Below are positions 32,794-54,831 of a stretch of 64,000 nucleotides of DNA, in pieces. The stretch is from an uncultured Gammaproteobacteria bacterium (lineage in GTDB: Bacteria; Patescibacteriota; Patescibacteriia; 2-01-FULL-39-33), in assembly GCA_964573235.1 (NCBI GenBank), contig CAZNIV010000003.1, positions 1,482 through 65,481 on the forward strand, read 5' to 3'. The number at the start of each line of letters is the position of its first letter. The first letter of the stretch is position 1. The notes beneath the pieces are model-generated. The model was not told the origin of the DNA. It searched no databases and saw nothing but the letters and a program-made list of their open reading frames with translations. Made by a program: the position numbers and the translations under genes.

Positions 32794-34482
32794 TTATCTA
32801 ATTTTACCATTAATTAGCCCATTTTTATCTAAAGCGGCATCAGTATTAATTGGTTTGGTGCTATAAGTTAAGGTTTCACCAGTAAGGGTGTCTTGGGCGC
32901 TAGCGGTAGTGGTGTTGATGATTTTTCCAACCATTCCGCCTTGGTCGGCAGTAGGAGTAAACTCTACTTCAAAGGCGCAAGCAATGCTAGGATAATTAGC
33001 ACTAGGGGCATTCACGGTATCAACATTCCAAGTGATTAAGTTATTTTTGGTATCGTAATGAACTCCACCATTAGCGGTAGTAGTGTATTGCCCGGTCCAG
33101 CGGACATTTTGACCAAGAGAAGTTTTAACTTGTAAATCTCTTAGATCATTTATATTGCTAGTAACTTGCATGGCTACCCAATAGCGAGTGGCCTCGCCGA
33201 TTTTCGGCGGTAATGGGCCAAAGCCAATTTGGTCACCTTCGGCGGTGAAGTATTTTAGGGTCACTGGCAAGGTCATTAAAGTGTTGATTTTTTGATTGAT
33301 AACATCAGCTGATTGAAAGCCAATATTGCCATCTGGCATAGTGTAATTTAGTTGGGTGGCTATGTTAAGAAAATTATTTTTTTGTTCACCATCCTTAAGA
33401 TTAATAGAAAAGGGAATGACTATAGACGCTTCTGGATTTAGACTGGCTAAGGCTAAAGTATTAGTGCGATCAAATTTAATGTTAGTGTCGCCTAATAGAT
33501 TATCCTCAGTAATATTAAGGGTGATATTTTTGACGGTAAAGTTTTCATGATTAATAATGGTGGCCAAATAAGAATTAACGCCAAAATTGGCATTTGTACT
33601 ATTGGCTTTAATGACTAAATCAATCTTAGATTTTTTAAAATTAATGGTAATGTTATTTTCAGCTAATTGATTTGAGCTATTGTCGGTAGTAATTTGGATC
33701 TTAAAAGAGTTGAGGGTTTTATTAATATTGTTTTTTACAGTTTTGGCAACAATCGTGCCAGTTAAACTTTGCTTAGGGTTTAGGGTAATGTTTTTTATGG
33801 GCAAAGTAGAAGAAGTGATGATTAAATTATTAGATAATAAATTATGACTCAGGGATAAGTTATTAATCGTGTTGTCACTTTTATTTTCAAGCGTAACATA
33901 GAAGGTAACTGGTTGACCGGCAAAAGCCCAGTCGGTAGCCTTTATGGTTAGAGACAATGGAGAGTCGCTGATATTTATTAGCTGGTTAATTTTTTTGGTA
34001 CGCTTGGCAGTATTGCCCTCGGGGATGAAAGTTAGTATTGAGTAAATTTGTTGTTCAGTTTTTGGCATCGCCCAAAACTTGCCGGAAAGGTTAATGGCGC
34101 CCTTGGCATTAATATCTAAGTCACCTAAGTTAAAGGTGATAGTTTTTTGGTCAAATTTTTGACTTGGAGATCCGCCAATTAATTCAAAGCTGTTAGGTAG
34201 ATTAAAAGTTAGTGTGGCTTGATTAAGTTGTTTACCTGATTTATTTTCGTAAGAAAAAATAAGATTAGTAACATCACCAGCAACAGTAGATTGATTTTGA
34301 TTTTCAGCGATTAAATCAATTTTATTTTCAATACGAAAGGCCACTTTATCTAAATGGCTATATAAACTAAGTGCCAATAAAATACCGACTAAAAAAAGCA
34401 AGAAAAAATTAAATACCAATGGGACCTTTTTTGTTTCAAATCGGCTGGCCGCAAAATCTTTTAGGAGTTTTTTTAGTTTCAT
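32794..34482 (-). CDS. Membrane-anchored, repeat-rich surface protein (DUF11/CARDB-like beta-sandwich modules, unverified)
   Basis: N-terminal TM (VPLVFNFFLLFLVGILLALSLY). N/T/S-rich beta-strand periodicity with recurring L.F.L.N...G....L.G modules. Confidence 0.6.
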   Translation of the reverse strand: MKLKKLLKDFAASRFETKKVPLVFNFFLLFLVGILLALSLYSHLDKVAFRIENKIDLIAENQNQSTVAGDVTNLIFSYENKSGKQLNQATLTFNLPNSFELIGGSPSQKFDQKTITFNLGDLDINAKGAINLSGKFWAMPKTEQQIYSILTFIPEGNTAKRTKKINQLINISDSPLSLTIKATDWAFAGQPVTFYVTLENKSDNTINNLSLSHNLLSNNLIITSSTLPIKNITLNPKQSLTGTIVAKTVKNNINKTLNSFKIQITTDNSSNQLAENNITINFKKSKIDLVIKANSTNANFGVNSYLATIINHENFTVKNITLNITEDNLLGDTNIKFDRTNTLALASLNPEASIVIPFSINLKDGEQKNNFLNIATQLNYTMPDGNIGFQSADVINQKINTLMTLPVTLKYFTAEGDQIGFGPLPPKIGEATRYWVAMQVTSNINDLRDLQVKTSLGQNVRWTGQYTTTANGGVHYDTKNNLITWNVDTVNAPSANYPSIACAFEVEFTPTADQGGMVGKIINTTTASAQDTLTGETLTYSTKPINTDAALDKNGLINGKIR

Positions 34483-34485
34483 ATA

Positions 34486-36585
34486 TTATTGGTTATTATT
34501 GATTATGGAGCTGATAGTAAATACGTTACTACTCAAAGCAATAATTTCTTTTTTGCCATCACCGTTTAAATCAGCTACGGTTACGCTGATGCCTTGACGA
34601 TTTTTCGGTACATAAGCCATAAAAGAGGAAAGTTGTTTACCGGTGTTAGAAAATACTTTTATTTCTGGCAAGGCATTGAAGCCGGCGCCAGTAATAATTT
34701 CTGCCCTGCCATCACCATTAACATCGCCAGCGGTTAGATTAACCCCATTGCGTAATTTATTATTATAAGCAAAAAAATCATTTATTAACTTGCCATTAGT
34801 ATCAAAAACTTTAACATGTGGACCGCCTCCATTGCCAGCTCCAGCGATAATTTCTACCTTGTTGTCGTCATTAATATCACCGACAGCGACATTTACTCCT
34901 AGCTTGATAGTTTTATTATTAAAAGCAGAAAACGATTTTGATTCTTGGCCGTACCAATTGAAAATTTTAATAGTATTGCCACCACCATTTTCTGATCCGG
35001 TGATAATTTCTTTTTTGCCATCGCCATTAATATCGGCTACAGCCAAAGAGATGCCATCTTGATATTTTTCACCATAAGGCATGAAGGTGGCAATGTTAAT
35101 TCCAGTTTCGCCAATAACATTAATAGTATTATTAGAAGCGCTAACGGTTTCAATAGTGCCATTATTATTAACATCGGTTTTGATTACTTTGTTGCTACCC
35201 TTTTGGTTTTTGTCGTAAGTAAAAAAACCGGTGCGAATATTATTTCCGGTGCTATCAAAAATTCTGGCGAAGGCGCCATTGATAAATACCGCATCTTTGA
35301 TTTCATTAACCCGACGGAGAAGAATAATGCCATCACGAGAAGCGAGGGTGACTTTGTTTATGATAGAGCCGTCATTAGTAATAGGATCTTGGTTGCCATG
35401 AATTTTTTCATACTCGCCATCAAAATAGGCTTCTTGGGGGTAGTCGGTAGAATTAACTAAAACAATGCCGTTAGTGAAATCGCGTTGCCAGAGACCACTA
35501 GTCATTTCGGGGTTGTTGGGGTTGAGTAAATTTTTTGTTCGTGATTGTGGTTCACCTAGATTAATATCAAATTCATCATACCACCAAAAGTGTTCACGCA
35601 ATTGTGGGCCGTAATCCATGGCATAAAAACCATTAAAGAGTAAGGAAGAGGCTAGAGTAAAACGCATTTTTTGATAGTCTTGGTTATTGGTGTTACCGGT
35701 ATTGCTATCTATTATATTAATGCGAGGCAAATAGCCGTTACCGTCTACTTGCTCATATTTTTTCATAGAACCAAGCCAGTCACCTTCGTATTGTTCCGGA
35801 AACCCTTCAAACATACGACCATTTAAGTATTGATGGTATAAGCCATCGCCATTGCCGACGATTAAATATTTGCTATCAATACGGGTGCGTAGTTTTTTGA
35901 GCAGATCAATATTGCCCTGTTGCCAGAGGCGGTCAATTTTTTCTTTGTTGTCATATATGCCGTCATTATCGATATCAATTTTGGCGTCCACCCAAGAAAC
36001 GGTTTGCCAGATATTATCTAATAATAAGCCATCCCATAAGCCCGTATTTAAAATTTTGTTTTGGTAAAAATCAGCCAAGAAATCGCCGTAAGTTTTATTG
36101 TTTTCATCTTTACTATAAGGATTCATTGAGACATTACCAGTCCACCAGGAAATATTTTTTCCATCAGTGGTTTTTAATTGCCATTGAGTTTTGGCGGCGC
36201 TAGTTAAATCATGCCACAAACCAATACCGCTTGGCTCGACTTCGTTTAGTCGGTATAGTGGTATTTCGTTGGAAGAAGTATAGGCGAGAATGATAATGTT
36301 TTTATTAAGTTGGCGCATTAGCCTGATAGCATCTGCAGAGTCATTTTGAGCTTGCATGCTTAAAGAAACTAAATCATATTTAGCTAGTTTTTTAGCTTCT
36401 TCTAAAGTAACGGGAGTTTTCCAAAACATGTTGGCCACTTTTGGATATTTGCCATCATTTTTTTGAGTCGCATCACCAGTGAAGTCGGGAAAAAATAAAA
36501 CCAAAGCTAAGAAAGCCGAAGCAAGGATGGTAGCCAAGGTGAAATCTAATTTTTGATATTTATTTCTTTTTCTTCTCATAATCAA
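34486..36585 (-). CDS. Membrane-anchored fusion of a glycoside-hydrolase-like TIM-barrel region and C-terminal FG-GAP/VCBS repeats
   Basis: N-terminal TM. GLWDGLLLDNIW is a GHL-type motif. At least four repeats of the form D(I/V/L)NGDGKKEIITG...GG..IKVF. Confidence 0.7.
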   Translation of the reverse strand: MIMRRKRNKYQKLDFTLATILASAFLALVLFFPDFTGDATQKNDGKYPKVANMFWKTPVTLEEAKKLAKYDLVSLSMQAQNDSADAIRLMRQLNKNIIILAYTSSNEIPLYRLNEVEPSGIGLWHDLTSAAKTQWQLKTTDGKNISWWTGNVSMNPYSKDENNKTYGDFLADFYQNKILNTGLWDGLLLDNIWQTVSWVDAKIDIDNDGIYDNKEKIDRLWQQGNIDLLKKLRTRIDSKYLIVGNGDGLYHQYLNGRMFEGFPEQYEGDWLGSMKKYEQVDGNGYLPRINIIDSNTGNTNNQDYQKMRFTLASSLLFNGFYAMDYGPQLREHFWWYDEFDINLGEPQSRTKNLLNPNNPEMTSGLWQRDFTNGIVLVNSTDYPQEAYFDGEYEKIHGNQDPITNDGSIINKVTLASRDGIILLRRVNEIKDAVFINGAFARIFDSTGNNIRTGFFTYDKNQKGSNKVIKTDVNNNGTIETVSASNNTINVIGETGINIATFMPYGEKYQDGISLAVADINGDGKKEIITGSENGGGNTIKIFNWYGQESKSFSAFNNKTIKLGVNVAVGDINDDNKVEIIAGAGNGGGPHVKVFDTNGKLINDFFAYNNKLRNGVNLTAGDVNGDGRAEIITGAGFNALPEIKVFSNTGKQLSSFMAYVPKNRQGISVTVADLNGDGKKEIIALSSNVFTISSIINNNQ

Positions 36586-39221: not shown

Positions 39222-39992
39222 TTATTTTTGGGATGAATCCTGACTTGGTTCTTCTGGAGTGTAATGAGGAGTAGGGTATTGATATTGATTAAGTAAGTTT
39301 TCGTTAGTAGATTCGGCTAGTAATTCCGACTCAAGAGAGGCTTGATTGTTGTATTGGTTAACTAATTCTTTACGATTGCTAGTAATGGAGAATAGTCTTT
39401 GTTGAGGAAAAATAACGATCAAGGTAAGGCTTAAAAATAACCCAGCCACCAAACCGAGTAAGCTGTTGCGTAATATTTTTGGTTCGGCCCATTTATCGGA
39501 AACAGATGGTTCATTAACAGTGCGAATTAAAACATTACTACCAAAGCCGTGATAGTATTGATGATTATTTTTAATAGTAGTAATAATGGCGTTAATCATT
39601 TTTTCGGCTTGATCGCGATCTGGATGTAAGACAGCCACTTCCATGATGCCGTTGCCATCTTTAATTTTTACGGTTACCATATTTTTCCAATTGTTCAATC
39701 TTTTTTCGTCAGTAGTGCCAAGATTATCAATTAAAGCAGGGTTGGTTTTGTAGACTTGACTAATAAAGGAATTAGAATAAGCTACTTCGCCTAAAATTCC
39801 GGCGATATAGTCAGAAGAGCGGGAGGCGGTGTATGGGTCGATGCTATTCTGATTGAAAACGACAATGATTTTAGAGGTAGCTAGATATTTTGGTGTTTGC
39901 ATAAAGCTTAAAAGTAAGCTTAAGGCACCAAAAAAAAGCGTAATAATTGTTACGGTAATGAGGTTGTGACGATTGAATAAGGTTTGGTTCAT
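39222..39992 (-). CDS. Wzz/PCP-like bitopic protein (two TMs flanking an external domain)
   Basis: TM1 (ITVTIITLFFGALSLLLSF), external domain, then TM2 (LLGLVAGLFLSLTLIVIF). Start moved to ATG 39992 because the annotated TTG start at 40079 is a -35 box. Confidence 0.45.
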   Translation of the reverse strand: MNQTLFNRHNLITVTIITLFFGALSLLLSFMQTPKYLATSKIIVVFNQNSIDPYTASRSSDYIAGILGEVAYSNSFISQVYKTNPALIDNLGTTDEKRLNNWKNMVTVKIKDGNGIMEVAVLHPDRDQAEKMINAIITTIKNNHQYYHGFGSNVLIRTVNEPSVSDKWAEPKILRNSLLGLVAGLFLSLTLIVIFPQQRLFSITSNRKELVNQYNNQASLESELLAESTNENLLNQYQYPTPHYTPEEPSQDSSQK

Positions 39993-40049
39993 AGCTATTT
40001 GGCTAAAATTAGGTTTATTTAAAATATAAATTATCTGTTTAAACTTTTT

Positions 40050-40078
40050 TATTATAACAAATTTAACATAATTTGTCA
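40050..40078 (-). promoter_or_regulatory. Consensus sigma70 promoter of the surface-glycan operon
   Basis: Minus strand reads TTGACA (40078-40073), 17-nt spacer, TGT-TATAAT (40055-40050). Confidence 0.55.
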
Positions 40079-40115
40079 ATAGGGGTTAATTTTATTAAAG
40101 ATTTGTATTTAAAAG

Positions 40116-40144
40116 TAGACATTAATGTCAAAAATTATTATAAT
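40116..40144 (+). promoter_or_regulatory. Sigma70 promoter of the small-membrane-protein/mraY transcription unit
   Basis: TAGACA (40116-40121), 17-nt spacer, TATAAT (40139-40144). Back-to-back with the minus-strand promoter. Confidence 0.5.
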
Positions 40145-40156
40145 GATACCAAATAA

Positions 40157-40537
40157 TTGCCAAATATGATACTTTCTTTTTTGGAGGAGAAAATTAAAAC
40201 CAATCCGGCACGACGGGACAAAGTTATTCTAATCAACGCTTTATTGGCTTTGGTTTTTAATGTAGCCCTATGGGTGTTATTTTTGTATTATTTTCATTCA
40301 GCTAGTGAATATATTGTGTTGAAGTATAATATCTATTTTGGCATCAGTGACTTAGGACTATGGTATTATGTGCTATTTTTGCCCTTAATAGGTTTGTTGG
40401 TTTTGTTGATAAATTATTTTGTGGCTTTGCTTATTTTTTTGCGCAATACTTATTTGAGTTATTTATTATCTTTCAGTTCTAGTATTGTTAATTTATTGTT
40501 ATTAATTGCTGGGTTGTTTTTAATTTATAAAAATTAA
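40157..40537 (+). CDS. Small 3-4 TM membrane protein of unknown function (intact copy)
   Basis: ORF of 126 aa from TTG 40157 (ATG alternative at 40166). Hydrophobic segments ALLALVFNVALWVLFLYYF, VLFLPLIGLLVLLINYFVALLIF, IVNLLLLIAGLFLIY. Confidence 0.6.
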   Translation: MPNMILSFLEEKIKTNPARRDKVILINALLALVFNVALWVLFLYYFHSASEYIVLKYNIYFGISDLGLWYYVLFLPLIGLLVLLINYFVALLIFLRNTYLSYLLSFSSSIVNLLLLIAGLFLIYKN

Positions 40538-40551
40538 TTAGTTATTATATT

Positions 40552-40707
40552 ATGTCTATAGAGTTTTTGGTGGTCAAAGTATTCTTTTTTGCTTTTATTT
40601 CTTTTGTAATTGCTATTTTGTGGACGCCATTATTAACTCATTTTTTGTATAAATATCGCTTGGGACAAAGTTATTCTAATCAACGCTTTATTGGCTTTGG
40701 TTTTTAA
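40552..40707 (+). pseudogene. mraY 5' fragment created by the duplication (first 38 codons, then out-of-frame tail)
   Basis: MSIEFLVVKVFFFAFISFVIAILWTPLLTHFLYKYRLG is identical to the intact MraY N-terminus, then QSYSNQRFIGFGF and a stop at 40705-40707. Confidence 0.7.
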
Positions 40708-40984
40708 TGTAGCCCTATGGGTGTTATTTTTGTATTATTTTCATTCAGCTAGTGAATATATTGTGTTGAAGTATAATATCTATTTTGGCATCAGTGACTT
40801 AGGACTATGGTATTATGTGCTATTTTTGCCCTTAATAGGTTTGTTGGTTTTGTTGATAAATTATTTTGTGGCTTTGCTTATTTTTTTGCGCAATACTTAT
40901 TTGAGTTATTTATTATCTTTCAGTTCTAGTATTGTTAATTTATTGTTATTAATTGCTGGGTTGTTTTTAATTTATAAAAATTAA
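40691..40984 (+). pseudogene. 5'-truncated duplicate of the small membrane-protein gene
   Basis: 97 aa identical to the C-terminal 97 aa of ORF 40157..40537. Only a TTG start is available and the original N-terminus and promoter are missing. Confidence 0.55.
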
Positions 40985-40998
40985 TTAGTTATTATATT

Positions 40999-42108
40999 AT
41001 GTCTATAGAGTTTTTGGTGGTCAAAGTATTCTTTTTTGCTTTTATTTCTTTTGTAATTGCTATTTTGTGGACGCCATTATTAACTCATTTTTTGTATAAA
41101 TATCGCTTGGGTAAGCAAATTCGCGCCAGTGAAGATGCGCCAATCTTTGCGCAGTTACATCAAAAAAAATCTGGCACGCCGGTAATGGGTGGTATGTTGG
41201 TATGGGTAACCACCTTGGTATTGGCGTTACTTTTTTGGTTGTTAGGATTTTTATTTAATGGGATGTTTAGCGGTCTTAATTTTTTAAGTCGCGCCCAAAC
41301 CTGGTTACCGCTGGGAGCATTGGTTATTACGGCTTTGGTTGGTATGGTGGATGATTATTTAAATGTGCGTCGTATTGGGCCAAAGGGGGGCGGTTTTTCT
41401 ATGAAGCATCGTTTGATTTTATATACAATCATTGCCATTGTGGTGGCTTGTTGGTTTTACTTTAAGTTAGATTGGGATTTAGTGCGAGTGCCTTTTTTGG
41501 GAGATTTTAATATTGGTTGGTGGTATATTCCATTCGCAGTATTTGTAGTAGTGGCGACCGCCTTTTCGGTTAATGAAACAGATGGCTTAGATGGTTTGGC
41601 TGGTGGCACCTTAATGACTTCTTTTTTGGCGATTGGTGCCATTGCTTTTATCCAGCAGCGTTATGACTTGGCTACTTTTTGTGCTGTAATTGCTGGGTCT
41701 TTATTGGCATTTTTATGGTTTAATATTGCTCCGGCTCGTTTTTTTATGGGTGATACGGGCGCTATGTCTATGGGGGTGGTATTAGCCATTATCGCCCTGC
41801 TAACCAATTCTGTTTTATTGTTGCCAGTTATTGGTTTGGTTTTTGTCTTAGAATCAGTTTCGGTGTTAATCCAAATGATTTCTAAAAAGTTAAGAAAAGG
41901 AAAAAAGATTTTTTTATCTACTCCGATCCATCATCACTTCGAGGCCGTTGGTTGGCCAGAAACTAAAATAGTGATGCGTGCCTGGGTAATATCGATGGTA
42001 GTAGCGGTAGCTGGTTTAGCTTTGTTTTTAACAGATGTTAAAACTAATAAAGATAATCAATATACAACGCAATGCAAAATTTTAGATAATAAATTAGATC
42101 ATAAATAA
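40999..42108 (+). CDS. mraY: Phospho-N-acetylmuramoyl-pentapeptide transferase
   Basis: NETDGLDGLA, FMGDTGAMSMG, PIHHHFE motifs. 10-TM architecture. Confidence 0.95.
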   Translation: MSIEFLVVKVFFFAFISFVIAILWTPLLTHFLYKYRLGKQIRASEDAPIFAQLHQKKSGTPVMGGMLVWVTTLVLALLFWLLGFLFNGMFSGLNFLSRAQTWLPLGALVITALVGMVDDYLNVRRIGPKGGGFSMKHRLILYTIIAIVVACWFYFKLDWDLVRVPFLGDFNIGWWYIPFAVFVVVATAFSVNETDGLDGLAGGTLMTSFLAIGAIAFIQQRYDLATFCAVIAGSLLAFLWFNIAPARFFMGDTGAMSMGVVLAIIALLTNSVLLLPVIGLVFVLESVSVLIQMISKKLRKGKKIFLSTPIHHHFEAVGWPETKIVMRAWVISMVVAVAGLALFLTDVKTNKDNQYTTQCKILDNKLDHK

Positions 42109-42110
42109 TT

Positions 42111-42779
42111 ATGACTGAAACGAAAATAACAGTGGGCGGTCAAGTATTTGATCGTTTTCATGTTAAGACTCATGTAGTAATGTTTGGGGATAAAATTGAA
42201 GACGTAGTAGAAAAATATGCTAAGCCAATTTTGCAAGCAAATGATTGGTTGTTTATTAGTGAGAAAGTAGTAGCGGTTACCCAAGGTCGCGCTTATAAAA
42301 TTGTAGATATTAAAGTTTCATTTTTAGCTAATTTTTTAGTGAAGTTTGTTTATAAGTCACCGTATGGTATTGGCTTAGGCCGACCGCAAACAATGCAATT
42401 AGCTATTAACGAAGCGGGGGCTTGGCGTATTTTGTTAGGCGCTTTAGTTTCGGCTATTACTAAACCGTTTGGGGTTCGCGGTATTTTTTATAAAGTAGTG
42501 GGCAAGGGAATTAATGCGATTGATGGCCCATGTGACTATACTCTGCCGCCTTATAATCAATATGCTGTTCTTGGCCCTAAAGACCCGGATAAGGTAGCTG
42601 CTATGCTGGCGGAGAAAAATAATTGCGAAGTGGTGATTGTGGATGCTAATGATTTAGGAGTGGCCATTTTAGGTGCCAGCAAAAATGTTGATCGGAAGTT
42701 AGCAGCGGAAATTTTTCGGGATAATCCATTAGGGCAAACAAATGAACAAACCCCACTTTGTGTAGTGAGAAAAATTTAA
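42111..42779 (+). CDS. CofE / F420-0:gamma-glutamyl-ligase-like domain protein
   Basis: WLFISEKVVAVTQGRAY and EVVIVDANDLGVAILGAS resemble F420_ligase-family motifs. ~220 aa, tightly packed between mraY and murD. Confidence 0.5.
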   Translation: MTETKITVGGQVFDRFHVKTHVVMFGDKIEDVVEKYAKPILQANDWLFISEKVVAVTQGRAYKIVDIKVSFLANFLVKFVYKSPYGIGLGRPQTMQLAINEAGAWRILLGALVSAITKPFGVRGIFYKVVGKGINAIDGPCDYTLPPYNQYAVLGPKDPDKVAAMLAEKNNCEVVIVDANDLGVAILGASKNVDRKLAAEIFRDNPLGQTNEQTPLCVVRKI

Positions 42780-42780
42780 T

Positions 42781-44181
42781 ATGGATTTTAAAAATAAAAA
42801 AATAGTGGTTATGGGCTTGGGTCTTTATGCGGATGGCTCAGGTATTTCGGCCACTAAATATTTATTAGCCCAAGGTGCTAATATAGTAGTGACTGATTTA
42901 AAAACGGCTGAACAACTTAAATCGCAATTAGAGCGCTTAGGGGATTTAGTTAATCAGGTAGAATTGGTTTTGGGTCAGCATCGGGAGAGTGATTTTTTGG
43001 ACGCTGATTATATTATTCGTAATCCGGGCGTGCCAAAATCGTCTAGATTTTTGCAGATCGCTAGAGAACATAATATTCCGATTGAATCTGATATTTCTTT
43101 ATCATTTAAGCTTATAAATAAAGATCGTTTGTTGGCGGTAACAGGAACTCGTGGCAAGAGTACAACTACTAGCTTGCTTTATGAGATTATTAAAGCTAAT
43201 GATAAGCGAGCAGTTTTGGGGGGTAATATTACTAAATCGCCGTTAGCCCAAATGTCTGCTGTAAAAAAGGGTGGTCCGGTGGTTTTGGAGTTATCTTCTT
43301 TTTTATTAGAAACTTTGGAGCCGTTTAAAGTGTCTCCGCATGTGGCTGTGTTTACTAATATTTACCCAGATCATTTAAATGCTTATAATAATATTGCTGA
43401 ATATGTGGCAGCTAAAGAAAATATTTGGCGGTGGCAAGAAAAAGATGATTTTGTAATTTTAAATCGTGATAATTCGATTACTAAAGCCATGGGAAAGAGG
43501 GTGGTTAGTCAGCGCTTGTGGTTTTCTCTAAAGTCATTTACTCAAGAGAATGGTGTTTTTGTAAAAAAAGGTAAAATTGTGGCGCGTTTGAACGGGGAGG
43601 AAAAAAATATTTTGGCTGTTAAGCAATTAAAAATGATTGGTGAACATAATGTGGCCAATGCTTGCGCGGCGACGGCAGCCGCCTTGGTTTATGCCGTTCC
43701 TTTGGCAGTTATTAAGGTAGTGTTAAAAAATTTTAAGGGCATTGCTGATCGCTTAGAGTTACTGAAAGAAGTTAGGGGTGTAAAATATTATAACGATACC
43801 ACTTCGACTACACCAGAAGCGGGATTAGTGGCGCTGGATGCTTTTAAAAAATACAAAAAGAAAATCGTGATGATTGCTGGCGGTTCTGATAAGGGGTTAA
43901 ATTTTTCTGAAATTGTTAAAAAAATGAAAAGCCATTGTGAGGCCTTGGTGCTTTTAAATGGCACAGGTACGGTTAGATTATTAGAGACTATTAAACAATC
44001 TAAATTGCGTTGCCCTGTGCTTGTGGTTGATTCTATGTTAGAGGCGGTTAATCAGGCCAGTGGTTTAGTTAAAAAAGGTGGTATTGTTTTATTATCCCCT
44101 TGTTGTGCTAGCTTTGGCATGTTTTCCAATGAGTTTGATCGAGGGGAAAAATATCGCTCAGCGGTGAAAAAAATTAAATGA
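42781..44181 (+). CDS. murD: UDP-N-acetylmuramoylalanine--D-glutamate ligase
   Basis: Mur ligase P-loop GTRGKSTTT, NDTTSTTPEA, and dcw position after mraY. Confidence 0.9.
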   Translation: MDFKNKKIVVMGLGLYADGSGISATKYLLAQGANIVVTDLKTAEQLKSQLERLGDLVNQVELVLGQHRESDFLDADYIIRNPGVPKSSRFLQIAREHNIPIESDISLSFKLINKDRLLAVTGTRGKSTTTSLLYEIIKANDKRAVLGGNITKSPLAQMSAVKKGGPVVLELSSFLLETLEPFKVSPHVAVFTNIYPDHLNAYNNIAEYVAAKENIWRWQEKDDFVILNRDNSITKAMGKRVVSQRLWFSLKSFTQENGVFVKKGKIVARLNGEEKNILAVKQLKMIGEHNVANACAATAAALVYAVPLAVIKVVLKNFKGIADRLELLKEVRGVKYYNDTTSTTPEAGLVALDAFKKYKKKIVMIAGGSDKGLNFSEIVKKMKSHCEALVLLNGTGTVRLLETIKQSKLRCPVLVVDSMLEAVNQASGLVKKGGIVLLSPCCASFGMFSNEFDRGEKYRSAVKKIK

Positions 44182-45332
44182 AAGAAAATAAAATTAAAAA
44201 TTGGTTAAGGAGTTTTTTTTATAAATCAAATGGGCAACAGGCCGATTGGTATCTTATTGGCTTGGTAACCTTTTTGTTATTTTTTGGTTTGGCTATTTTG
44301 TCATCCGCTTCATCGGTAGAAAGTTATCGAGTGTATGGTGATACTTATTGGCATTTGCGCCACCAGTTAATATATGGAGTGCTACCAGGTGTATTGTTTT
44401 TTGTTTTTTTTGCCTTTTTTGATTATCAAAAGCTGCGTAAATGGGCTTTTCCAATATTTTTATTAGCCATTTTTTTATTAGTACTGGTTTTTATTCCTGG
44501 GTTTGGTAGTACTAACAATACTTTTGCCAAAAGTTGGATTCATCTTTTTGGTTTTTCTTTTCAGCCAGCAGAGGTTGCTAAGCTATCATTTATTCTTTAT
44601 TTATCATCTTGGTTAGCATCGCGTGATAGTGATGTGATTAAAGATGCGAAGCAGGGATTTTTTCCATTCCTTTTTTCTTTGGGCGTTATTGGTGTATTAA
44701 TGATTATGCAACCAGATTGGGGCACTTTATTAATTATTGTGTCGATTGCGATAGCTATTTTTTTTGTGGCCGGTGGTAGTTTAAAGCATATTTTTTGGTT
44801 GATTATTTGTGGAATTGGGGTTTTTTCTTTATTAGTATCTAAATCGGCCACTACCTTAAAACGCTTGACTACTTTTTTACATCCAGAGCTGGATCCTAAG
44901 GGTATGGGGTATCAGATTAATCAAGCATTGTTGGCGGTTGGCTCTGGTGGTTGGTTGGGTCGCGGATTTGGTCATTCGCGCCAAAAGTTTTCTTATTTGC
45001 CAGAGGTTTATGGTGATTCGGTTTACGCTATTGCGGCGGAGGAATTAGGTTTTGCATTTTCGGTATTGATTGTGTTGGTATTTTTATTATTGTTTTTTAG
45101 AGGATTGAAGATTGCTAATAATTGTGAGGATAAGTTTGGTAAATATGTAGCAGTTGGTATAGCGACTTGGTTGATTACTCAGGCGTTTTTAAATATCGGG
45201 GCCATTATTGGTATTTTTCCTTTGACCGGCGTGCCGTTGCCATTTATTTCTTATGGTGGCACATCGCTGGCGGTGGCTTTGGCGGCTTGTGGTATTTTAG
45301 TTAATATTTCTCGCCAAACAAATCGCTACTAA
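44178..45332 (+). CDS. ftsW: SEDS-family peptidoglycan polymerase FtsW
   Basis: QPDWGT and TGVPLPFISYGGTS motifs. ATGA overlap with murD. Confidence 0.9.
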   Translation: MKENKIKNWLRSFFYKSNGQQADWYLIGLVTFLLFFGLAILSSASSVESYRVYGDTYWHLRHQLIYGVLPGVLFFVFFAFFDYQKLRKWAFPIFLLAIFLLVLVFIPGFGSTNNTFAKSWIHLFGFSFQPAEVAKLSFILYLSSWLASRDSDVIKDAKQGFFPFLFSLGVIGVLMIMQPDWGTLLIIVSIAIAIFFVAGGSLKHIFWLIICGIGVFSLLVSKSATTLKRLTTFLHPELDPKGMGYQINQALLAVGSGGWLGRGFGHSRQKFSYLPEVYGDSVYAIAAEELGFAFSVLIVLVFLLLFFRGLKIANNCEDKFGKYVAVGIATWLITQAFLNIGAIIGIFPLTGVPLPFISYGGTSLAVALAACGILVNISRQTNRY

Positions 45333-45384
45333 TTGCCAAGATGGTCGGCTTTTGGTATTTTAAGTAGTAGAAAGGAATTAAATT

Positions 45385-46485
45385 ATGAACAATCAAACTG
45401 TAAGAGTTAGTGAAAAAATTATTAATCAAGGGCGTATTTTGTTTGCTGGAGGTGGTACTATGGGTTCCGTTAGTCCATTAATTGCCGTTCAGGAATACAT
45501 TAAAAAACAATTTCCTAATATTAAGTTTTTGTTTGTTGGCACTTATAGTGGTCCAGAAAAACAAGCTGTAGAAAGTTATAAGATTGTTTTTAAGGCTATT
45601 GCTTCTGGAAGATTGCGTCGTTATTTTTCTTGGCGTAATATTACCGATCCGTTTTTGGTAATTTGGGGATTTTTGCAGAGCTTGGTTATTCTTATTAAAT
45701 TTAAACCGAGCGTTGTAATGATTGCAGGTGCTTTTGTAGGGGTGCCCGTGGCTTGGGCGGCCTGGCTATTGGGTATTCCGGTAGTGATTCATCAACAAGA
45801 TATTTTACCGGGCTTGGCTAATAAGTTAATGCAAAGAGTGGCTAAAAGAATTACTGTTTCGTTCGATATTTCACTTAATGATTATTTGCAATCAAAAGTA
45901 GTATTAACCGGTAATCCGGTTAGAGAAGAATTTTTGTCTTGCGATTTACAGCATAGTCGCGATTTTTTTAATTTAAAAAGTGATTTACCAGTATTGTTAG
46001 TATTGGGCGGTGGAACCGGTGCGCAAATTATTAATGAATCAATAGTTAAGGCTTTAGCGGAGTTGTTGCAATTTTGTCAGGTGATTCATATTACGGGTAA
46101 GGGCAAGGCGATAAGAGTAGAAGCAGAAAATTATCATCAGTTTGAGTTCTTGTCTCATGAAATGCCAGATGCGCTTTGCGCGGCAGATGTAGTAGTAAGC
46201 AGGGCTGGTCTTTCTACTTTAACAGAATTAATTGCTATGGCTAAGCCGACTATTTTAGTACCTATTCCGGGGCATCAAGAAGATAACGCTTTATTTTTTC
46301 AAAAAAACAATGCAGTAACTTCTATTTCTCAAGACGCATTTAATTCGGAATTAATCATTTCTTTGGTTAAAGATATTATGTTTGATAAGGCCCGTAAAGA
46401 TAATTTGTCTCGTAATATTTCTAAGATGATGGAAGTTGGTGGGGCAGAAAAAGTAGCAGCCATCTTGTTGTCAGTAGCTAAATAA
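45385..46485 (+). CDS. murG: Undecaprenyldiphospho-muramoylpentapeptide beta-N-acetylglucosaminyltransferase
   Basis: GGGTMGSVSPLIAV and LGGGTGAQ glycine-rich loops, GT28 architecture. Confidence 0.9.
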   Translation: MNNQTVRVSEKIINQGRILFAGGGTMGSVSPLIAVQEYIKKQFPNIKFLFVGTYSGPEKQAVESYKIVFKAIASGRLRRYFSWRNITDPFLVIWGFLQSLVILIKFKPSVVMIAGAFVGVPVAWAAWLLGIPVVIHQQDILPGLANKLMQRVAKRITVSFDISLNDYLQSKVVLTGNPVREEFLSCDLQHSRDFFNLKSDLPVLLVLGGGTGAQIINESIVKALAELLQFCQVIHITGKGKAIRVEAENYHQFEFLSHEMPDALCAADVVVSRAGLSTLTELIAMAKPTILVPIPGHQEDNALFFQKNNAVTSISQDAFNSELIISLVKDIMFDKARKDNLSRNISKMMEVGGAEKVAAILLSVAK

Positions 46486-46487
46486 AT

Positions 46488-47861
46488 ATGGAATTAAAAG
46501 AGTTTAAAAAAGTATTTTTTACAGGCATTGGCGGTGTGGGAATATCGGCAACTGCGAGGATTTTAAATTTTCAGGGAATCAAAGTCTCTGGTTCTGAAGT
46601 AACTACTAGTGAGTTAACGGAACAGCTGATAAGAGAAGGAGTTAGCGTGGTGATCCCCCAAAAGGCGGAGAATGTGCCTATTGATGCAGGTCTATTGGTT
46701 TATAGTGTAGCTGTGCCAGAAGATAATCCAGAGCGTCAAGTGGCGAAAAAATATGGCATCAAAGAAATAACTTATCCTCAGTTATTGGGATTATTAATGA
46801 AGGATCAGTATGGCATAGGTGTTTCTGGTACTAATGGTAAAACCACCACGACCGCTCTGTTGAGTTTATTGTTTTTGGAAGCGGAAAAAGATCCGACCGT
46901 GGTTTTGGGTGGCAAGACAGATTATTTAGGGGGGAATTCACGAGTGGGCAGTAGTCAATATTTTATTTTTGAAAGCGATGAGTACCGTCGCGCATTTGTT
47001 AATTATTTTCCTAAAATGGCAGTGGTGACTTATGTGACTGAGGATCACCTGGATTATTATAAAGATATTAACGATATTAAAGCGGCTTTTAGGGATTATT
47101 TGGTCAAAGTACCGGCCGATGGTTTTATTTTTGCTAACGCTGATGATGCTAATTCTTTAGAGGTGGCTGGCGGTGCGCAGGCGCGAAAAATTACTTTTGG
47201 CATGGATAATCAAGCGGATATTATGGCAAAAAATATTCGCGTGGCTAATGGTCAGCAAATTTTTGATTTAAGTTTTATGGATAAAAAACTGGGGGAAATG
47301 CAATTGCATTTGCCAGCCAAATATAATATTTATAATGTATTAGCGGCTGTTGGCCCAGCGCTCATGGTTGGTTTGGATTTTAAAGTAATTCAAAAGGCGG
47401 TGGCTAAGTTTAAGGGTAGTTGGCGTCGTTTTGAAAAGATCGGCCAATTTATGGGTATTGATGTAATTTCGGATTACGCTCATACACCCGATGCGGTGGA
47501 GAAAACGATTTTAGCAGCGCAGGAATTTTATCCGGGTAAAAAAGTATTAACCATCTTTCAGCCCCATCAGTATAATCGGACGAAGAATTTTTTTGAGCAA
47601 TTTGCGTTGGCATTTAAGGGCGCTGATCAGGCTTTTGTGATGGATATTTTTTTTGTGAAAGGCCGAGAAAATCCGGCGGATTTTGATGTGAGTAGTGAAA
47701 AATTGGCAGTTGAGGCAGTTAAGTTAGGCGGTAGGGTAGCTTATTTGAATAAATTAAATAAAGAGACCCTAAGTCAATTATTAAAGGCAGATAATTACGG
47801 TTTAATCTTAACTATGGGTGCGGGTGATATTTATAATTATGCCAAAGAATTAGTGAAGTAA
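46488..47861 (+). CDS. murC: UDP-N-acetylmuramate--L-alanine ligase
   Basis: N-terminal GIGGVGISA, P-loop GTNGKTTTT, DYAHTP. Confidence 0.9.
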   Translation: MELKEFKKVFFTGIGGVGISATARILNFQGIKVSGSEVTTSELTEQLIREGVSVVIPQKAENVPIDAGLLVYSVAVPEDNPERQVAKKYGIKEITYPQLLGLLMKDQYGIGVSGTNGKTTTTALLSLLFLEAEKDPTVVLGGKTDYLGGNSRVGSSQYFIFESDEYRRAFVNYFPKMAVVTYVTEDHLDYYKDINDIKAAFRDYLVKVPADGFIFANADDANSLEVAGGAQARKITFGMDNQADIMAKNIRVANGQQIFDLSFMDKKLGEMQLHLPAKYNIYNVLAAVGPALMVGLDFKVIQKAVAKFKGSWRRFEKIGQFMGIDVISDYAHTPDAVEKTILAAQEFYPGKKVLTIFQPHQYNRTKNFFEQFALAFKGADQAFVMDIFFVKGRENPADFDVSSEKLAVEAVKLGGRVAYLNKLNKETLSQLLKADNYGLILTMGAGDIYNYAKELVK

Positions 47862-47862
47862 T

Positions 47863-48825
47863 ATGAAATCAATAACAGAATTGGCAAAAATAGCCGGTGC
47901 AGAAGTTAAAGAAAAAGAGCCATTGGCCAAATGGACGACTTTTAAAATTGGTGGACCGGCAAAATATTTTGTAGTGATTAGGAGTATAGAAAAATTAGGG
48001 GCAGTTTTGAATTTTTGTCGCGAGAAAAAAATGCCTTATATTATTTTAGGTGGTGGCAGTAATCTGTTGATTGGTGAAAAAGGTTTTGCTGGATTGGCGA
48101 TAAGACTAATGGCAGATAATTTTTTAGTAACAGAAAATAAAATAACAGTGGATGCCGGGATGAGTTTGACGCGCTTGGTTGGTTTAACTGCCCAGTGTAG
48201 CTTAAGTGGTTTAGAGTGGGCGGCTGGTATTCCAGGAACAGTAGGCGGAGCGGTTCATGGCAATGCCGGAGCTTATGGAGGTAGTATGAGTCAATGCGTT
48301 AATGCGGTAACTATTTGGCGTGATGGTAAAATTGTTAAGCTAAACAAAGAGGATTGCCATTTTATTTATCGCGGTAGTATTTTTAAAGCTACTCACAATA
48401 AGGATGTGATTTTAAGTGCCGAGTTAGTTTTAAATTTGGGTGAGGAAAAGACGATTCGTGCCAAGATGATGGAAATTATTAACAAGCGTCGAGCAAAGTT
48501 TGTTAACATTAATTCGGCGGGATCTACTTTTAAAAATATTGAAATGACAGAGGCGGAAATTTTAGAGTTTAAGAAAAAATATCCTGATTTGCCAGATGAA
48601 TTTGTAAAATATAGAAAAATCCCGGCTGCTTGGTTAATCGATCAATGTGACTTGCGAGGCAAGACTATTGGTGGGGCGCAGGTTTATGAAAATCATGCTG
48701 GAATAGTAATAAACATTGGCCAAGCAACGGCTGAGAGTGTTATAATGTTAATAAGTGTCATTAAGCAAAAAGTAAGAATGGAATTCGGCTTGCAATTGCA
48801 TGAAGAAATAGAGTATATTGGATAA
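47863..48825 (+). CDS. murB: UDP-N-acetylenolpyruvoylglucosamine reductase
   Basis: FAD-binding ILGGGSNLL, AGIPGTVGGAV, GSTFKN. Confidence 0.9.
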   Translation: MKSITELAKIAGAEVKEKEPLAKWTTFKIGGPAKYFVVIRSIEKLGAVLNFCREKKMPYIILGGGSNLLIGEKGFAGLAIRLMADNFLVTENKITVDAGMSLTRLVGLTAQCSLSGLEWAAGIPGTVGGAVHGNAGAYGGSMSQCVNAVTIWRDGKIVKLNKEDCHFIYRGSIFKATHNKDVILSAELVLNLGEEKTIRAKMMEIINKRRAKFVNINSAGSTFKNIEMTEAEILEFKKKYPDLPDEFVKYRKIPAAWLIDQCDLRGKTIGGAQVYENHAGIVINIGQATAESVIMLISVIKQKVRMEFGLQLHEEIEYIG

Positions 48826-48861
48826 GGCGGAAGCCATACTAATTAATAACTAAAAAACAGT

Positions 48862-49170
48862 ATGGAAATCATTATTAAAGCAAAAAATGCTCAATTGACC
48901 CCAGAGGGTCATAAGCTAGTAGAAGAAAAAATCGGTTCTCTAGATAAATATTTTGATGGTATTATTAAGGCTCATGTAGAGGTTGGTATTAACTCGATGC
49001 ATCATCAGAAAGGTAATATTTATATAGCTGAAGTAGAGCTTCATGTGCCTGGTAAACAGTTGATGGCCACCGCTGAAACCGAAGATGTTCAGACCTCAAT
49101 CGACAAGGTCAAAGACATTTTGAAGCGAGAATTGATTAAGTATAAAGAAATGTTACAGTCACACAAATAA
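48862..49170 (+). CDS. hpf: Ribosome hibernation factor (short HPF/RaiA type)
   Basis: ~100-aa S30AE-family pattern (ITPEGHKLVEEKIGSLDKYF...AEVELHVPGKQL). Confidence 0.85.
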   Translation: MEIIIKAKNAQLTPEGHKLVEEKIGSLDKYFDGIIKAHVEVGINSMHHQKGNIYIAEVELHVPGKQLMATAETEDVQTSIDKVKDILKRELIKYKEMLQSHK

Positions 49171-49174
49171 TCTA

Positions 49175-49192
49175 AGCGGCCTTCGGGCCGCT
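49175..49192 (+). terminator. Rho-independent terminator after hpf
   Basis: AGCGGCC / GGCCGCT stem with a TTCG tetraloop, followed by TTTT. Confidence 0.7.
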
Positions 49193-49199
49193 TTTATAG

Positions 49200-54828: not shown

Positions 54829-54831
54829 TAT

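What the first reader, a model, noticed from the sequence alone, without database searches (positions are those of the whole stretch)
42111..42779. CofE/F420-glutamyl-ligase-like gene wedged between mraY and murD
A 222-aa ORF begins 2 nt after the mraY stop, and murD begins 1 nt after its own stop, so it is almost certainly co-transcribed with the peptidoglycan precursor genes. Its motifs (SEKVVAVTQGRAY; VVIVDANDLGVAILG) resemble the F420-0:gamma-glutamyl ligase (CofE) fold, an amide-bond-forming glutamate ligase. Nothing else in the window suggests F420 biosynthesis, and canonical dcw clusters have no gene here. One inference is that it has been recruited for cell-envelope precursor chemistry, for example glutamyl addition to or modification of a lipid-linked or nucleotide-linked intermediate. 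Its function is unknown.
Basis: partly seen in the sequence, partly recalled or inferred. Interest (0 to 1): 0.5.

Follow-up and report, generated by a model that had tools for sequence, protein, structure and literature searches.

The report
CofE-like ligase inside cell-wall operon
A small gene wedged between two cell-wall synthesis genes has the fold of the enzyme that adds glutamate to cofactor F420 but lacks its F420-binding parts, and it belongs to a large, highly conserved, uncharacterised family whose best functional clue is frequent fusion to an amide-forming AsnB-type enzyme.

Summary
A 222-aa ORF (42111-42779) lies 2 nt after mraY and 1 nt before murD.

It is not CofE. It scores 12 bits against the 181-bit cut-off of the CofE equivalog model. 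It lacks CofE residues 167-197 and the C-terminal swapped loop that binds glutamate and F420. Thirty-seven of the window's ORFs, scanned against Pfam, include no F420 genes.

The family is large (3,512 clusters at 90% identity) and highly conserved (about 60% identity across phyla). It is mostly found in CPR/Patescibacteria and is named "F420 ligase" in databases.

The dcw placement is real but lineage-limited. All 9 members of the window's indel-defined subgroup sit between mraY and murD or ftsW, often beside an L,D-transpeptidase gene. Only 2 of 78 other surveyed genomes have mur genes nearby. One close relative (L091) has mraY-murD with no insert.

The new clue is a fusion. In 44 of 152 representative clusters the domain is joined to the C-terminus of an atypical AsnB-type amidotransferase, in Saccharibacteria and in cultured Actinobacteria.

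Best guess, at confidence 0.35: an NTP-dependent amide ligase acting on a cell-wall precursor carboxylate.

The parts
42111..42779 (+). X: 222-aa CofE-fold protein, a divergent clade of PF01996 and the subject of the finding
42258..42296 (+). Motif SEKVVAVTQGRAY (residues 50-62). It aligns to CofE C39-R51. E51, K52, Q58 and R60 are conserved family-wide at 87-94%; G59 is nearly invariant (>=90%) in the 27-sequence standalone set.
42522..42524 (+). Asp138, in the NAIDGP motif. It aligns to CofE Asp109, a Mn2+ ligand in CofE as I recall from the 2PHN paper. It is 99% conserved across 112 domains.
42630..42674 (+). Motif VVIVDANDLGVAILG (residues 174-188). Asp178 aligns to CofE Asp150 and Asn180 to Asn152. 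D178, N180 and D181 are 91-98% conserved.
42720..42758 (+). Motif DNPLGQTNEQTPL (residues 204-216). Gln209 aligns to CofE Glu208. D204, N205, P206, G208, Q209, T214 and P215 are conserved family-wide. The protein ends where the CofE core ends, so it has no swapped C-terminal loop.
40999..42108 (+). mraY, 2 nt upstream of X
   Evidence: Pfam Glycos_transf_4, E 1.5e-32
42781..44181 (+). murD, 1 nt downstream of X. It is the canonical D-Glu type at the two decisive positions: Asp at E. coli D182 and Lys at E. coli K348.
   Evidence: Pfam; alignment to E. coli MurD 1E0D; criteria from PMC8788868
44178..48825 (+). ftsW-murG-murC-murB, the rest of the same-strand, tightly packed cluster
   Evidence: Pfam; gene spacing
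49174..49193 (+). The only strong terminator-like hairpin downstream of the cluster

Best explanation
X is a cytoplasmic, nucleotide-triphosphate-dependent amide-bond ligase built on the CofE fold. Like CofE, it would activate a substrate carboxylate as an acyl phosphate at a divalent-metal site and then let an amine attack. It has lost the F420 and glutamate pockets of CofE and gained its own invariant inserts (KSPYGIGLG, DGPCDYTLPPYN), so its acceptor is something else. The most likely acceptor is a free carboxylate of a peptidoglycan precursor, such as the stem peptide of UDP-MurNAc-peptide or lipid I/II. X would then act alongside AsnB-type amidation of the same class of molecule. In this lineage it is expressed from the dcw operon between mraY and murD.

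Shown: the fold; retention of two of the three residues I recall as CofE's acidic metal ligands; absence of the F420/Glu elements; dcw embedding within one subgroup; and recurrent fusion to an AsnB-like amidotransferase that lacks the aspartate-type site.

Inferred: ligase activity; the nucleotide used; the identity of both substrates; and the peptidoglycan link outside this subgroup.
For: Fold and site:
- Foldseek hits only CofE entries.
- hhalign 97.5%, E 3e-11, over 186 columns. D138 aligns to D109, D178 to D150, N180 to N152 and G59-R60 to G48-R49, all conserved in 112 domains.

Cell-wall link:
- All 9 distinct members of the window's indel-defined subgroup lie in the dcw cluster. The arrangements are mraY-X-murD, mraY-X-orf158-murD, mraY-LDT-X-murD and X-ftsW. 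This holds across MurD divergence down to 44-57% identity.
- The second recurrent insert is an L,D-transpeptidase gene.

Amide-chemistry link:
- 44 of 152 50%-identity representative clusters are GATase_7 + Asn_synthase + X fusions.
- The fusions occur in Saccharibacteria, Nomurabacteria, Woesebacteria and cultured Intrasporangiaceae.
- They keep the catalytic Cys2 and the PP-loop.
- All 121 have Tyr for E. coli R387, Gln for E348, and a roughly 63-residue extra loop in the substrate region.
- This is the pattern that PMC8554201 gives for peptidoglycan-amidating AsnB homologues, as opposed to asparagine-making ones.

Sporadic cell-wall neighbours and fusions: GlmS in 4 loci, Mur ligase in 3, YkuD in 3, VanZ in 3, PBP in 2, and one Amidase_3 fusion.
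Against: - Outside the subgroup there is no conserved neighbour at all. No family is next to X in more than 5 of 133 flanking genes.
- Only 2 of 78 other loci have mur genes within 6 kb, which is about chance for a genome of roughly 0.8 Mb.
- L091, a close relative by MraY (73%) and MurD (57%), has no X at this site. An inserted gene can hitch-hike in a conserved operon.
- AsnB-like enzymes amidate many things other than peptidoglycan.
- The genomic contexts of the fusions are uninformative.
- CofE Glu208, which I recall as a metal ligand, aligns to an invariant Gln, so catalytic competence is not assured.
- There are no biochemical data.
Confidence: 0.35

Rival explanations
1. X, together with an AsnB-type amidotransferase, makes a small soluble peptide amide. 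This would be analogous to N-acetylglutaminylglutamine amide synthesis by Ngg and AsnO. X would replace the ATP-grasp dipeptide ligase, forming a glutamyl-X bond much as CofE forms gamma-Glu-Glu when it makes F420-2.
For: The fusion partners parallel the NAGGN 'trio' of amidotransferase, GNAT and peptidase. There are AsnB-like fusions in 44 clusters, a GNAT fusion (P0126/P0272, on at least 3 contigs) and one M20 peptidase fusion. The AsnB modules give sub-threshold hits of 277-323 bits to TIGR03104, the NAGGN amidotransferase model. CofE chemistry includes Glu-to-Glu ligation (PMC10861534). The absence of conserved neighbours fits a stand-alone metabolic enzyme.
Against: The TIGR03104 scores are far below its cut-off of 570. 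The GNAT and M20 fusions are rare and may be run-ons of adjacent genes. This reading does not explain the 9/9 dcw embedding with an L,D-transpeptidase. X lacks the CofE loop that holds glutamate.
Confidence: 0.15
2. X glutamylates a cofactor other than F420, for example salvaged folate, as the CofE-family enzyme FolC2 does in Chlamydia.
For: There is precedent for a COG1478/CofE-family enzyme taking over folate glutamylation (PMC4161248). The top NCBIfam hit, although trivial, is TIGR04132 'putative folate metabolism gamma-glutamate ligase'. A housekeeping role would fit the strong conservation and the scattered genomic locations.
Against: The TIGR04132 score is 13.9 bits against a cut-off of 350. 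No folate genes lie beside X in the window or in 70 loci. The glutamate-binding swapped loop is absent. The AsnB fusion and the dcw embedding are left unexplained.
Confidence: 0.1
3. The dcw position is a neutral hitch-hiking insertion, and X has some unrelated function. It might be catalytic or might be a non-catalytic nucleotide- or ligand-binding protein whose very high conservation reflects a macromolecular partner.
For: There is no family-wide synteny. X is absent from the site in L091. About 60% identity is kept across CPR, Firmicutes, WOR-3 and Armatimonadota, which is much higher than for the neighbouring Mur enzymes. The residue I recall as the third metal ligand is replaced.
Against: X stays in the dcw cluster while other inserts (LDT, orf158) come and go around it. 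The acidic site residues and the GR motif are invariant. The covalent fusion to an active amidotransferase argues for an enzymatic role.
Confidence: 0.2
4. X is a genuine CofE that adds glutamate to F420-0, as the database name says.
For: The Pfam F420_ligase hit is above threshold. Sources name the protein 'coenzyme F420-0:L-glutamate ligase'.
Against: The TIGR01916 equivalog score is 12.2 bits against a cut-off of 180.65. The Pfam match stops at model position 149 of 218. The swapped C-terminal loop (R234) and residues 167-197 are absent. No F420 genes were found in the window. CPR is not among the phyla listed with F420 genes in PMC8498797.
Confidence: 0.02

Closest known systems
CofE, F420-0:gamma-glutamyl ligase (Archaeoglobus fulgidus; PDB 2PHN, 2G9I, 7ULD), and the FbiB N-terminal domain
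   Different: Only 17-23% identical. It fails the CofE equivalog model. About 30 residues of CofE 167-197 are missing, as is the whole C-terminal domain-swapped loop that contacts glutamate and the F420 ring. E208 is replaced by Gln. It has its own invariant inserts at 81-89, 116-121 and 142-146. It occurs in organisms not known to make F420.
FolC2 (CT611) of Chlamydia, a COG1478/CofE-family folylglutamate synthase
   Same: It sets the precedent that a CofE-family enzyme can be recruited to a different substrate, with operon context revealing the new role (PMC4161248).
   Different: X scores 13.9 bits against the 350-bit cut-off of the folate-type model TIGR04132. There is no folate gene context.
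AsnB1 / LtsA / AsnB peptidoglycan mDAP amidotransferases (L. plantarum, C. glutamicum, B. subtilis, L. monocytogenes)
   Same: They are the closest functional model for the fusion partner of X. They are AsnB-family enzymes of about 630-650 aa that lack the aspartate-binding D/R and carry an extra substrate-region loop (PMC8554201). The fusions show R387 to Tyr and a 63-residue extra loop.
   Different: None of the characterised enzymes carries a CofE-like C-terminal domain. I did not directly compare the fusion partners with these proteins because I had no sequences for them. In the fusions E348 is Gln.
MurT/GatD lipid II D-iso-glutamate amidotransferase
   Same: It is an analogy for how X might work. 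An ATP-dependent ligase-fold protein activates a stem-peptide carboxylate as an acyl phosphate and is paired with a glutaminase (PMC6085368 abstract, listed).
   Different: MurT has a Mur-ligase fold, not a CofE fold. No homology to X.
MurD2/MurL alternative D-Glu pathway (Xanthomonas)
   Same: An extra gene sits next to murD and acts on the UDP-MurNAc-peptide glutamate using a nucleotide (PMC8788868).
   Different: The window's MurD carries the canonical Asp and Lys determinants, not the Glu and Arg of MurD2. MurL is described as having no known conserved domains and makes AMP. X matched no NCBIfam model other than the CofE and folate-type ones.

Membership tests
CofE / F420-0:gamma-glutamyl ligase | Match to Pfam PF01996 (F420_ligase) above the gathering score | tested here: met
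   31.4 bits against 25, E 1.7e-7. The match covers only model positions 2-149 of 218.
CofE / F420-0:gamma-glutamyl ligase | Score above the cut-off of the NCBIfam equivalog model TIGR01916 (F420_cofE) | tested here: not met
   12.2 bits against a cut-off of 180.65.
CofE / F420-0:gamma-glutamyl ligase | CofE fold | tested here: met
CofE / F420-0:gamma-glutamyl ligase | Acidic Mn2+/GTP-site residues Asp109, Asp150 and Glu208 (roles as I recall from Nocek et al. 2007; that paper is not held here) | tested here: inconclusive
   D138 aligns to D109 and D178 to D150, both about 98-99% conserved. E208 aligns to an invariant Gln209. T151 aligns to Ala.
CofE / F420-0:gamma-glutamyl ligase | C-terminal domain-swapped loop (R234) and adjoining segments that complete the glutamate and F420 pocket | tested here: not met
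   X ends at the equivalent of CofE L221. CofE 167-176, 180-191 and 195-197 have no partner in X. The role of the loop comes from PMC10861534, main text and supplementary legends.
CofE / F420-0:gamma-glutamyl ligase | Presence of the rest of the F420 pathway (cofC, cofD, cofG/H or fbiC) | tested here: not met
   None was found among the 37 window ORFs scanned with Pfam. The window is only 64 kb, so absence from the whole genome could not be tested.
CofE / F420-0:gamma-glutamyl ligase | GTP-dependent addition of L-glutamate to F420-0 | not testable with these tools
   This needs an enzyme assay.
FolC2-type folate gamma-glutamate ligase (TIGR04132) | Score above the model cut-off, and a folate gene cluster context | tested here: not met
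   13.9 bits against 350. There are no folate genes in the window or among 133 neighbours of X.
MurD2/MurL alternative glutamate pathway | The adjacent MurD has the L-Glu determinants (Glu at E. coli D182, Arg at E. coli K348) | tested here: not met
   The window's MurD has YPDHL (Asp) and GGSDKG (Lys). Thr at E. coli K319 is common in CPR-like MurDs that have no X nearby.
AsnB-X fusion family (unnamed) | The X domain is homologous to the C-terminal domain of the roughly 880-aa GATase_7 + Asn_synthase + X proteins | tested here: met
   Profile E-values range from 1e-77 to 1e-45. Identity to the window's X is 36-49%, and the fused domains cluster with the standalone forms. In this window the protein is standalone, and no AsnB gene is present in the window.

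The most novel reading that the evidence does not exclude
X defines a new class of peptidoglycan-precursor-modifying enzyme built on the CofE fold. It would be an NTP-dependent ligase that derivatises a free stem-peptide carboxylate with an amino acid or an amide. It would work together with, and in Saccharibacteria and Actinobacteria be fused to, an AsnB-type amidotransferase. If so, many CPR bacteria would have a chemically modified cell wall not yet described.
Probability: 0.3. Interest if true: 0.75.

Novelty: new variant of a known kind. Interest (0 to 1): 0.55.

Why it matters
Thousands of database entries from CPR/Patescibacteria and other phyla are named 'coenzyme F420-0:L-glutamate ligase'. 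The evidence here says that name is almost certainly wrong.

The family is among the most conserved proteins in these fast-evolving, reduced genomes, yet it has no known role.

Two independent clues point to carboxylate-amide chemistry that may act on the cell wall. One is stable embedding in the cell-wall operon of one lineage. The other is recurrent fusion to an atypical AsnB-type amidotransferase. Cell-wall chemistry is one of the few biosynthetic capacities CPR bacteria keep.

The fusion also exists in a cultured organism with a complete genome, Intrasporangium calvum. That makes the question directly testable by genetics and muropeptide analysis.

Tried and rejected
1. Sequence searches of PDB with the protein and with a 27-sequence profile found nothing. 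Only fold comparison and a deeper 112-domain profile linked X to CofE.

2. A family-wide synteny search looked at 80 species loci, using tblastn with the window's dcw proteins, neighbour clustering and a Pfam tally of 133 neighbours. It found no conserved partner.

3. The MurL/MurD2 epimerase-analogue idea was rejected. The window's MurD is canonical at the decisive residues, and the unusual Thr at the K319 position is general in these lineages.

4. Genomic contexts of the AsnB-X fusions in I. calvum, a Saccharimonadales genome and a Woesebacteria genome were uninformative.

5. One-off fusions to HD_4, PlsY, adenylate kinase, AhpC, CDP-OH-P transferase, TPR and Amidase_3 were treated as probable run-ons of neighbouring genes and given little weight.

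6. Rfam found no RNA element in the window.

7. The AFDB50 fold library was not available.

8. The two CofE/FbiB structure papers (PMC2678844, PMC4807274) are not held. The metal-ligand roles therefore rest on my own recollection.

9. Literature searches for this family in CPR returned nothing relevant.

10. I did not use the third homologue search to build a CofE-family profile, because its best 120 hits would probably be too close to Af-CofE to define family invariants.

Full report
**Observation**

The ORF is exactly as described. It runs 42111-42779 (+), encodes 222 aa and starts with ATG. It begins 2 nt after the TAA of mraY (40999-42108) and ends 1 nt before the ATG of murD (42781-44181). 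Pfam confirms MraY, MurD, FtsW, MurG, MurC and MurB in one tightly packed, same-strand cluster. No convincing terminator-like hairpin occurs between mraY and murB. The only strong one is at 49174-49193. Co-transcription is therefore plausible but not demonstrated. The gene is real: 3,512 clusters (at 90% identity) of homologues have E <= 1e-3. An identical protein is already deposited and named 'coenzyme F420-0:L-glutamate ligase'.

**What the protein is**

- Pfam F420_ligase (PF01996) matches above its curated cut-off, 31.4 bits against 25. The match covers only the first two-thirds of the model, positions 2-149 of 218.
- The NCBIfam CofE equivalog model is missed by a wide margin, 12.2 bits against 180.65. 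So is the folate-type model TIGR04132, 13.9 against 350.
- Sequence searches of PDB found nothing.
- An AlphaFold2 model built on 27 homologues is confident: pLDDT 86, pTM 0.82.

I recovered the true Af-CofE sequence from the PDB set by probing with a remembered FbiB sequence. The recovered numbering agrees with F92 and G153-C155 as cited in PMC10861534. A profile of 112 X domains aligns to this sequence with 97.5% probability, E 3e-11, over 186 columns.

The residue map is:

| X residue | Af-CofE residue |
|---|---|
| D138 | D109 |
| D178 | D150 |
| A179 | T151 |
| N180 | N152 |
| G59-R60 | G48-R49 |
| Q209 | E208 |
| P215 | P214 |
| R220 | R219 |

D109, D150, T151 and E208 are the Mn2+ ligands of CofE as I recall from the 2PHN paper. 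That paper is not held in the library, so the assignment is marked as recalled.

CofE residues 167-176, 180-191 and 195-197 have no partner in X. X also stops where the CofE core stops. It therefore lacks the C-terminal domain-swapped loop, including R234. According to PMC10861534, that loop completes the active site and contacts free L-glutamate, the terminal glutamyl and the F420 ring.

X has its own invariant inserts instead: KSPYGIGLG at 81-89, 116-121, and DYTLP at 142-146.

Conclusion: X has the CofE fold and probably CofE-like metal and nucleotide chemistry, but not the CofE substrate site.

**Not F420**

I scanned 37 ORFs of the window against Pfam. They encode BipA, UvrD, TruB, MetRS, TatD, MurA, CtpA, RmlA/B, type IV pilus proteins, glycosyltransferases, a Wzy_C protein, Fpg, UppP, MltG and the dcw genes. 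None is an F420, folate or AsnB gene. The F420 review lists the phyla that carry F420 genes, and CPR/Patescibacteria is not among them. Absence from the whole genome cannot be tested from 64 kb.

**Distribution and conservation**

The best 120 homologues are 61-100% identical over the full length. They come from Parcubacteria, Uhr-, Magasanik-, Falkow-, Portnoy- and Giovannonibacteria.

A pattern scan of one genome per species found relatives in 476 species. These include non-CPR lineages at about 60% identity: Ruminococcaceae/Oscillospiraceae, WOR-3, Caldipriscus, Armatimonadota and Ignavibacteriales.

In the two closest genomes X is 65-66% identical while MurD is only 51-52% identical. X is therefore under unusually strong constraint.

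**Is mraY-X-murD conserved?**

Family-wide it is not.

- tblastn with the window's dcw proteins on 80 species-level loci found dcw genes within 6 kb in only four: L007, L008, L014 and L033.
- Clustering of flanking genes, and a Pfam tally of 133 immediate neighbours, found no family next to X in more than five loci. The counts were UDG 5; GH130, GlmS and cupin 4 each; Mur ligase, YkuD and VanZ 3 each.
- A metagenome scan with the window's MurD found the closest MurD relative, L091 (MurD 57%, MraY 73%, a 565-kb contig). There, mraY is followed by 271 nt of non-coding DNA and then murD, with no X.

Within the window's own subgroup of X the picture is different. The subgroup is defined by shared indels and signatures: no N-terminal 'PNxGK' extension, a one-residue deletion after S190, and AYKI and YAVLG. 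It comprises 8 of the top 120 proteins, plus L007. Every one of the nine distinct members lies in the dcw cluster:

| Arrangement | Members |
|---|---|
| mraY-X-murD | the window |
| mraY-X | P0018 (short contig) |
| mraY-X-orf158-murD-ftsW-murG-murC | P0017, found on more than 24 contigs |
| mraY-LDT-X-murD | L007, L008 (P0007), P0005 |
| LDT-X-murD | P0002, P0003 |
| X-ftsW | P0004 |

LDT here is a protein with FG-GAP repeats and a YkuD L,D-transpeptidase domain. The embedding is therefore a stable trait of one lineage and is accompanied by a second cell-wall insert. It is not a trait of the family.

**The fusion clue**

An exhaustive profile search of 1.84 billion representatives found 1,322 clusters with E <= 1e-3. 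Many are long proteins with the X domain at the C-terminus.

- 44 of the 152 sequences in hand carry an AsnB-type module, GATase_7 + Asn_synthase, in front of X.
- A search with one fusion (P0169) shows proteins of about 880-896 aa in Saccharibacteria/Saccharimonadales, Nomurabacteria and Woesebacteria. They also occur in cultured Actinobacteria: Intrasporangium calvum (complete genome), Ornithinibacter, Humibacillus and Dermatophilaceae.
- The AsnB modules keep the nucleophile Cys2 (MCGIAG) and the PP-loop SGGLDS. They pass the generic model TIGR01536.
- Aligned to E. coli AsnB, all 121 have Tyr in place of R387 and Gln in place of E348. They have 90-93 residues where E. coli has 29, between positions 361 and 390.
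- Their best solved relative is TsnB9, which amidates a bulky acid.

PMC8554201 states that peptidoglycan mDAP-amidating AsnB homologues lack the Asp-binding D and R of asparagine-making enzymes and carry an extra loop in the substrate region. That these are D384 and R387 in E. coli is my recollection. The fusion partner is thus an active amidotransferase for something other than free aspartate.

The fused X domains are 36-49% identical to the window's X and cluster with the standalone forms.

Other fusions are single or rare: M20 peptidase, GNAT, PlsY, HD_4, adenylate kinase, AhpC, CDP-alcohol phosphatidyltransferase, TPR and Amidase_3.

**Ideas tested and dropped**

The MurD2/MurL pathway places an ATP-dependent epimerase gene next to a MurD variant that ligates L-Glu (PMC8788868). 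The window's MurD has Asp at the E. coli D182 position and Lys at the K348 position, which is the canonical D-Glu type. Its Thr at the K319 position is shared by CPR-like MurDs with no X nearby. This idea gains no support.

**Mechanism proposed**

The best-supported reading is an NTP-dependent, acyl-phosphate-forming amide ligase on the CofE scaffold. Its acceptor would be a carboxylate of a cell-wall precursor, and it would act in concert with AsnB-type amidation.

Shown: the fold; the conserved acidic and GR site; loss of the F420/Glu elements; lineage-specific dcw embedding beside murD and an L,D-transpeptidase; and covalent linkage to an atypical amidotransferase.

Inferred: catalysis itself, the nucleotide, both substrates, and any cell-wall role outside the subgroup.

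I give this a confidence of 0.35. The rivals are:

| Rival | Confidence |
|---|---|
| NAGGN-like synthesis of a small peptide amide with AsnB | 0.15 |
| FolC2-like cofactor glutamylation | 0.10 |
| Hitch-hiking gene with an unrelated or non-catalytic role | 0.20 |
| True CofE | 0.02 |

**Novelty and verdict**

The gene is not a new kind of object. It is a divergent, evidently mis-named clade of a known enzyme superfamily. No paper in the searchable library deals with it or with the AsnB fusion.

The specific 'glutamyl addition' remains open, and the missing glutamate loop counts somewhat against it.

Interest is moderate (0.55). The family is large, highly conserved and functionally unassigned, and the question is testable in a cultured actinobacterium.

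Noticed in passing
window 40215-41111: There is a perfect tandem duplication of a 447-nt unit (40215-40664 is identical to 40662-41111). It covers the 3' two-thirds of the small membrane ORF, the intergenic spacer and the first 113 nt of mraY. This leaves a truncated mraY 5' fragment at 40552-40664 and a second, N-terminally shortened copy of the small ORF (40691-40984). The 100% identity points to a very recent event or an assembly artefact. GC in this kilobase is 25.5%, against about 37% nearby.
   Followed up: partly
window 40157-40537; L007, L091 3243-3617, L149 249-623, L152 2590-2964: A small hydrophobic ORF of 124-140 aa with no Pfam match sits immediately upstream of mraY in the window and in its relatives. 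It may be a lineage-specific membrane component of the dcw cluster, in the position FtsL usually holds. The best promoter-like site on the + strand (40116-40144) lies just before it.
   Followed up: partly
L007 4323-5750, L008 4602-5996, L152 4368-5753, L154 1-798, L157 3-419: In five relatives a gene encoding FG-GAP repeats plus a YkuD L,D-transpeptidase domain is inserted between mraY and X. The window lacks it at that site. It has a 699-aa FG-GAP-like protein on the other strand (34486-36585) that resembles the repeat part at 29-43% identity over the aligned pieces. I did not check that protein for a YkuD domain.
   Followed up: partly
L097-L100, L103, L105, L111, L124, L137 (metagenome MurD loci); window 42781-44181: CPR-like MurD proteins lack the Lys of the NDSKATN motif (E. 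coli K319). The variants seen are NDTTSTT, NDTCATT, NDSFSTT and NDSCSTV. One group has Glu at the E. coli D182 position (TSEHL), which is one of the two residues that make MurD2 L-Glu-specific. These MurDs may deserve a look for altered glutamate stereospecificity.
   Followed up: no
P0273-P0391, P0169, P0131 (AsnB-X fusion proteins); L087 8001-10676 in Intrasporangium calvum CP002343: All 121 fusion proteins have Gln in place of E. coli AsnB Glu348, Tyr in place of Arg387, and a roughly 63-residue insertion in the substrate-binding region. In I. calvum the gene lies next to guaA and near LPG_synthase_TM, AMP-binding and PIG-L genes.
   Followed up: yes
L149 2367-2843 (also L150, L151): A 158-aa basic ORF with no Pfam match sits between X and murD in the P0017 lineage. 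It has no counterpart in the window.
   Followed up: no
L091 4694-4964: In the relative that lacks X, the 271-nt non-coding gap between mraY and murD is AT-rich. It contains short direct and inverted repeats (AAAAGTAAC / GTACTTTTT ... AAAAAGTACC). This could be a scar of gene loss or a regulatory region.
   Followed up: no
window 10214-12310, 23863-25329, 25345-25986, 32794-34482, 39222-40079, 57081-59459: Six sizeable ORFs of 213-792 aa have no Pfam match at E <= 1e-5. Several lie among type IV pilus and surface-polysaccharide genes.
   Followed up: no
window 40999-49170 and 13656-14909: The dcw cluster is truncated relative to the canonical order. There is no ftsI, murE or murF upstream of mraY. 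murB follows murC directly. Then come a small ORF that looks HPF/RaiA-like by eye (48862-49170, not tested) and secA. murA lies 26 kb away on the other strand, and uppP and mltG lie at 54019-55842.
   Followed up: no
P0126/P0272, P0124, P0262, P0153 and L089 7530-7964: There are rare fusions of X to GNAT (seen on at least 3 contigs), M20 peptidase, Amidase_3 and AhpC. An AhpC gene also sits immediately upstream of the AsnB-X gene in a Saccharimonadales genome. This may explain the AhpC-X 'fusion' as a rearranged or mis-called gene.
   Followed up: partly
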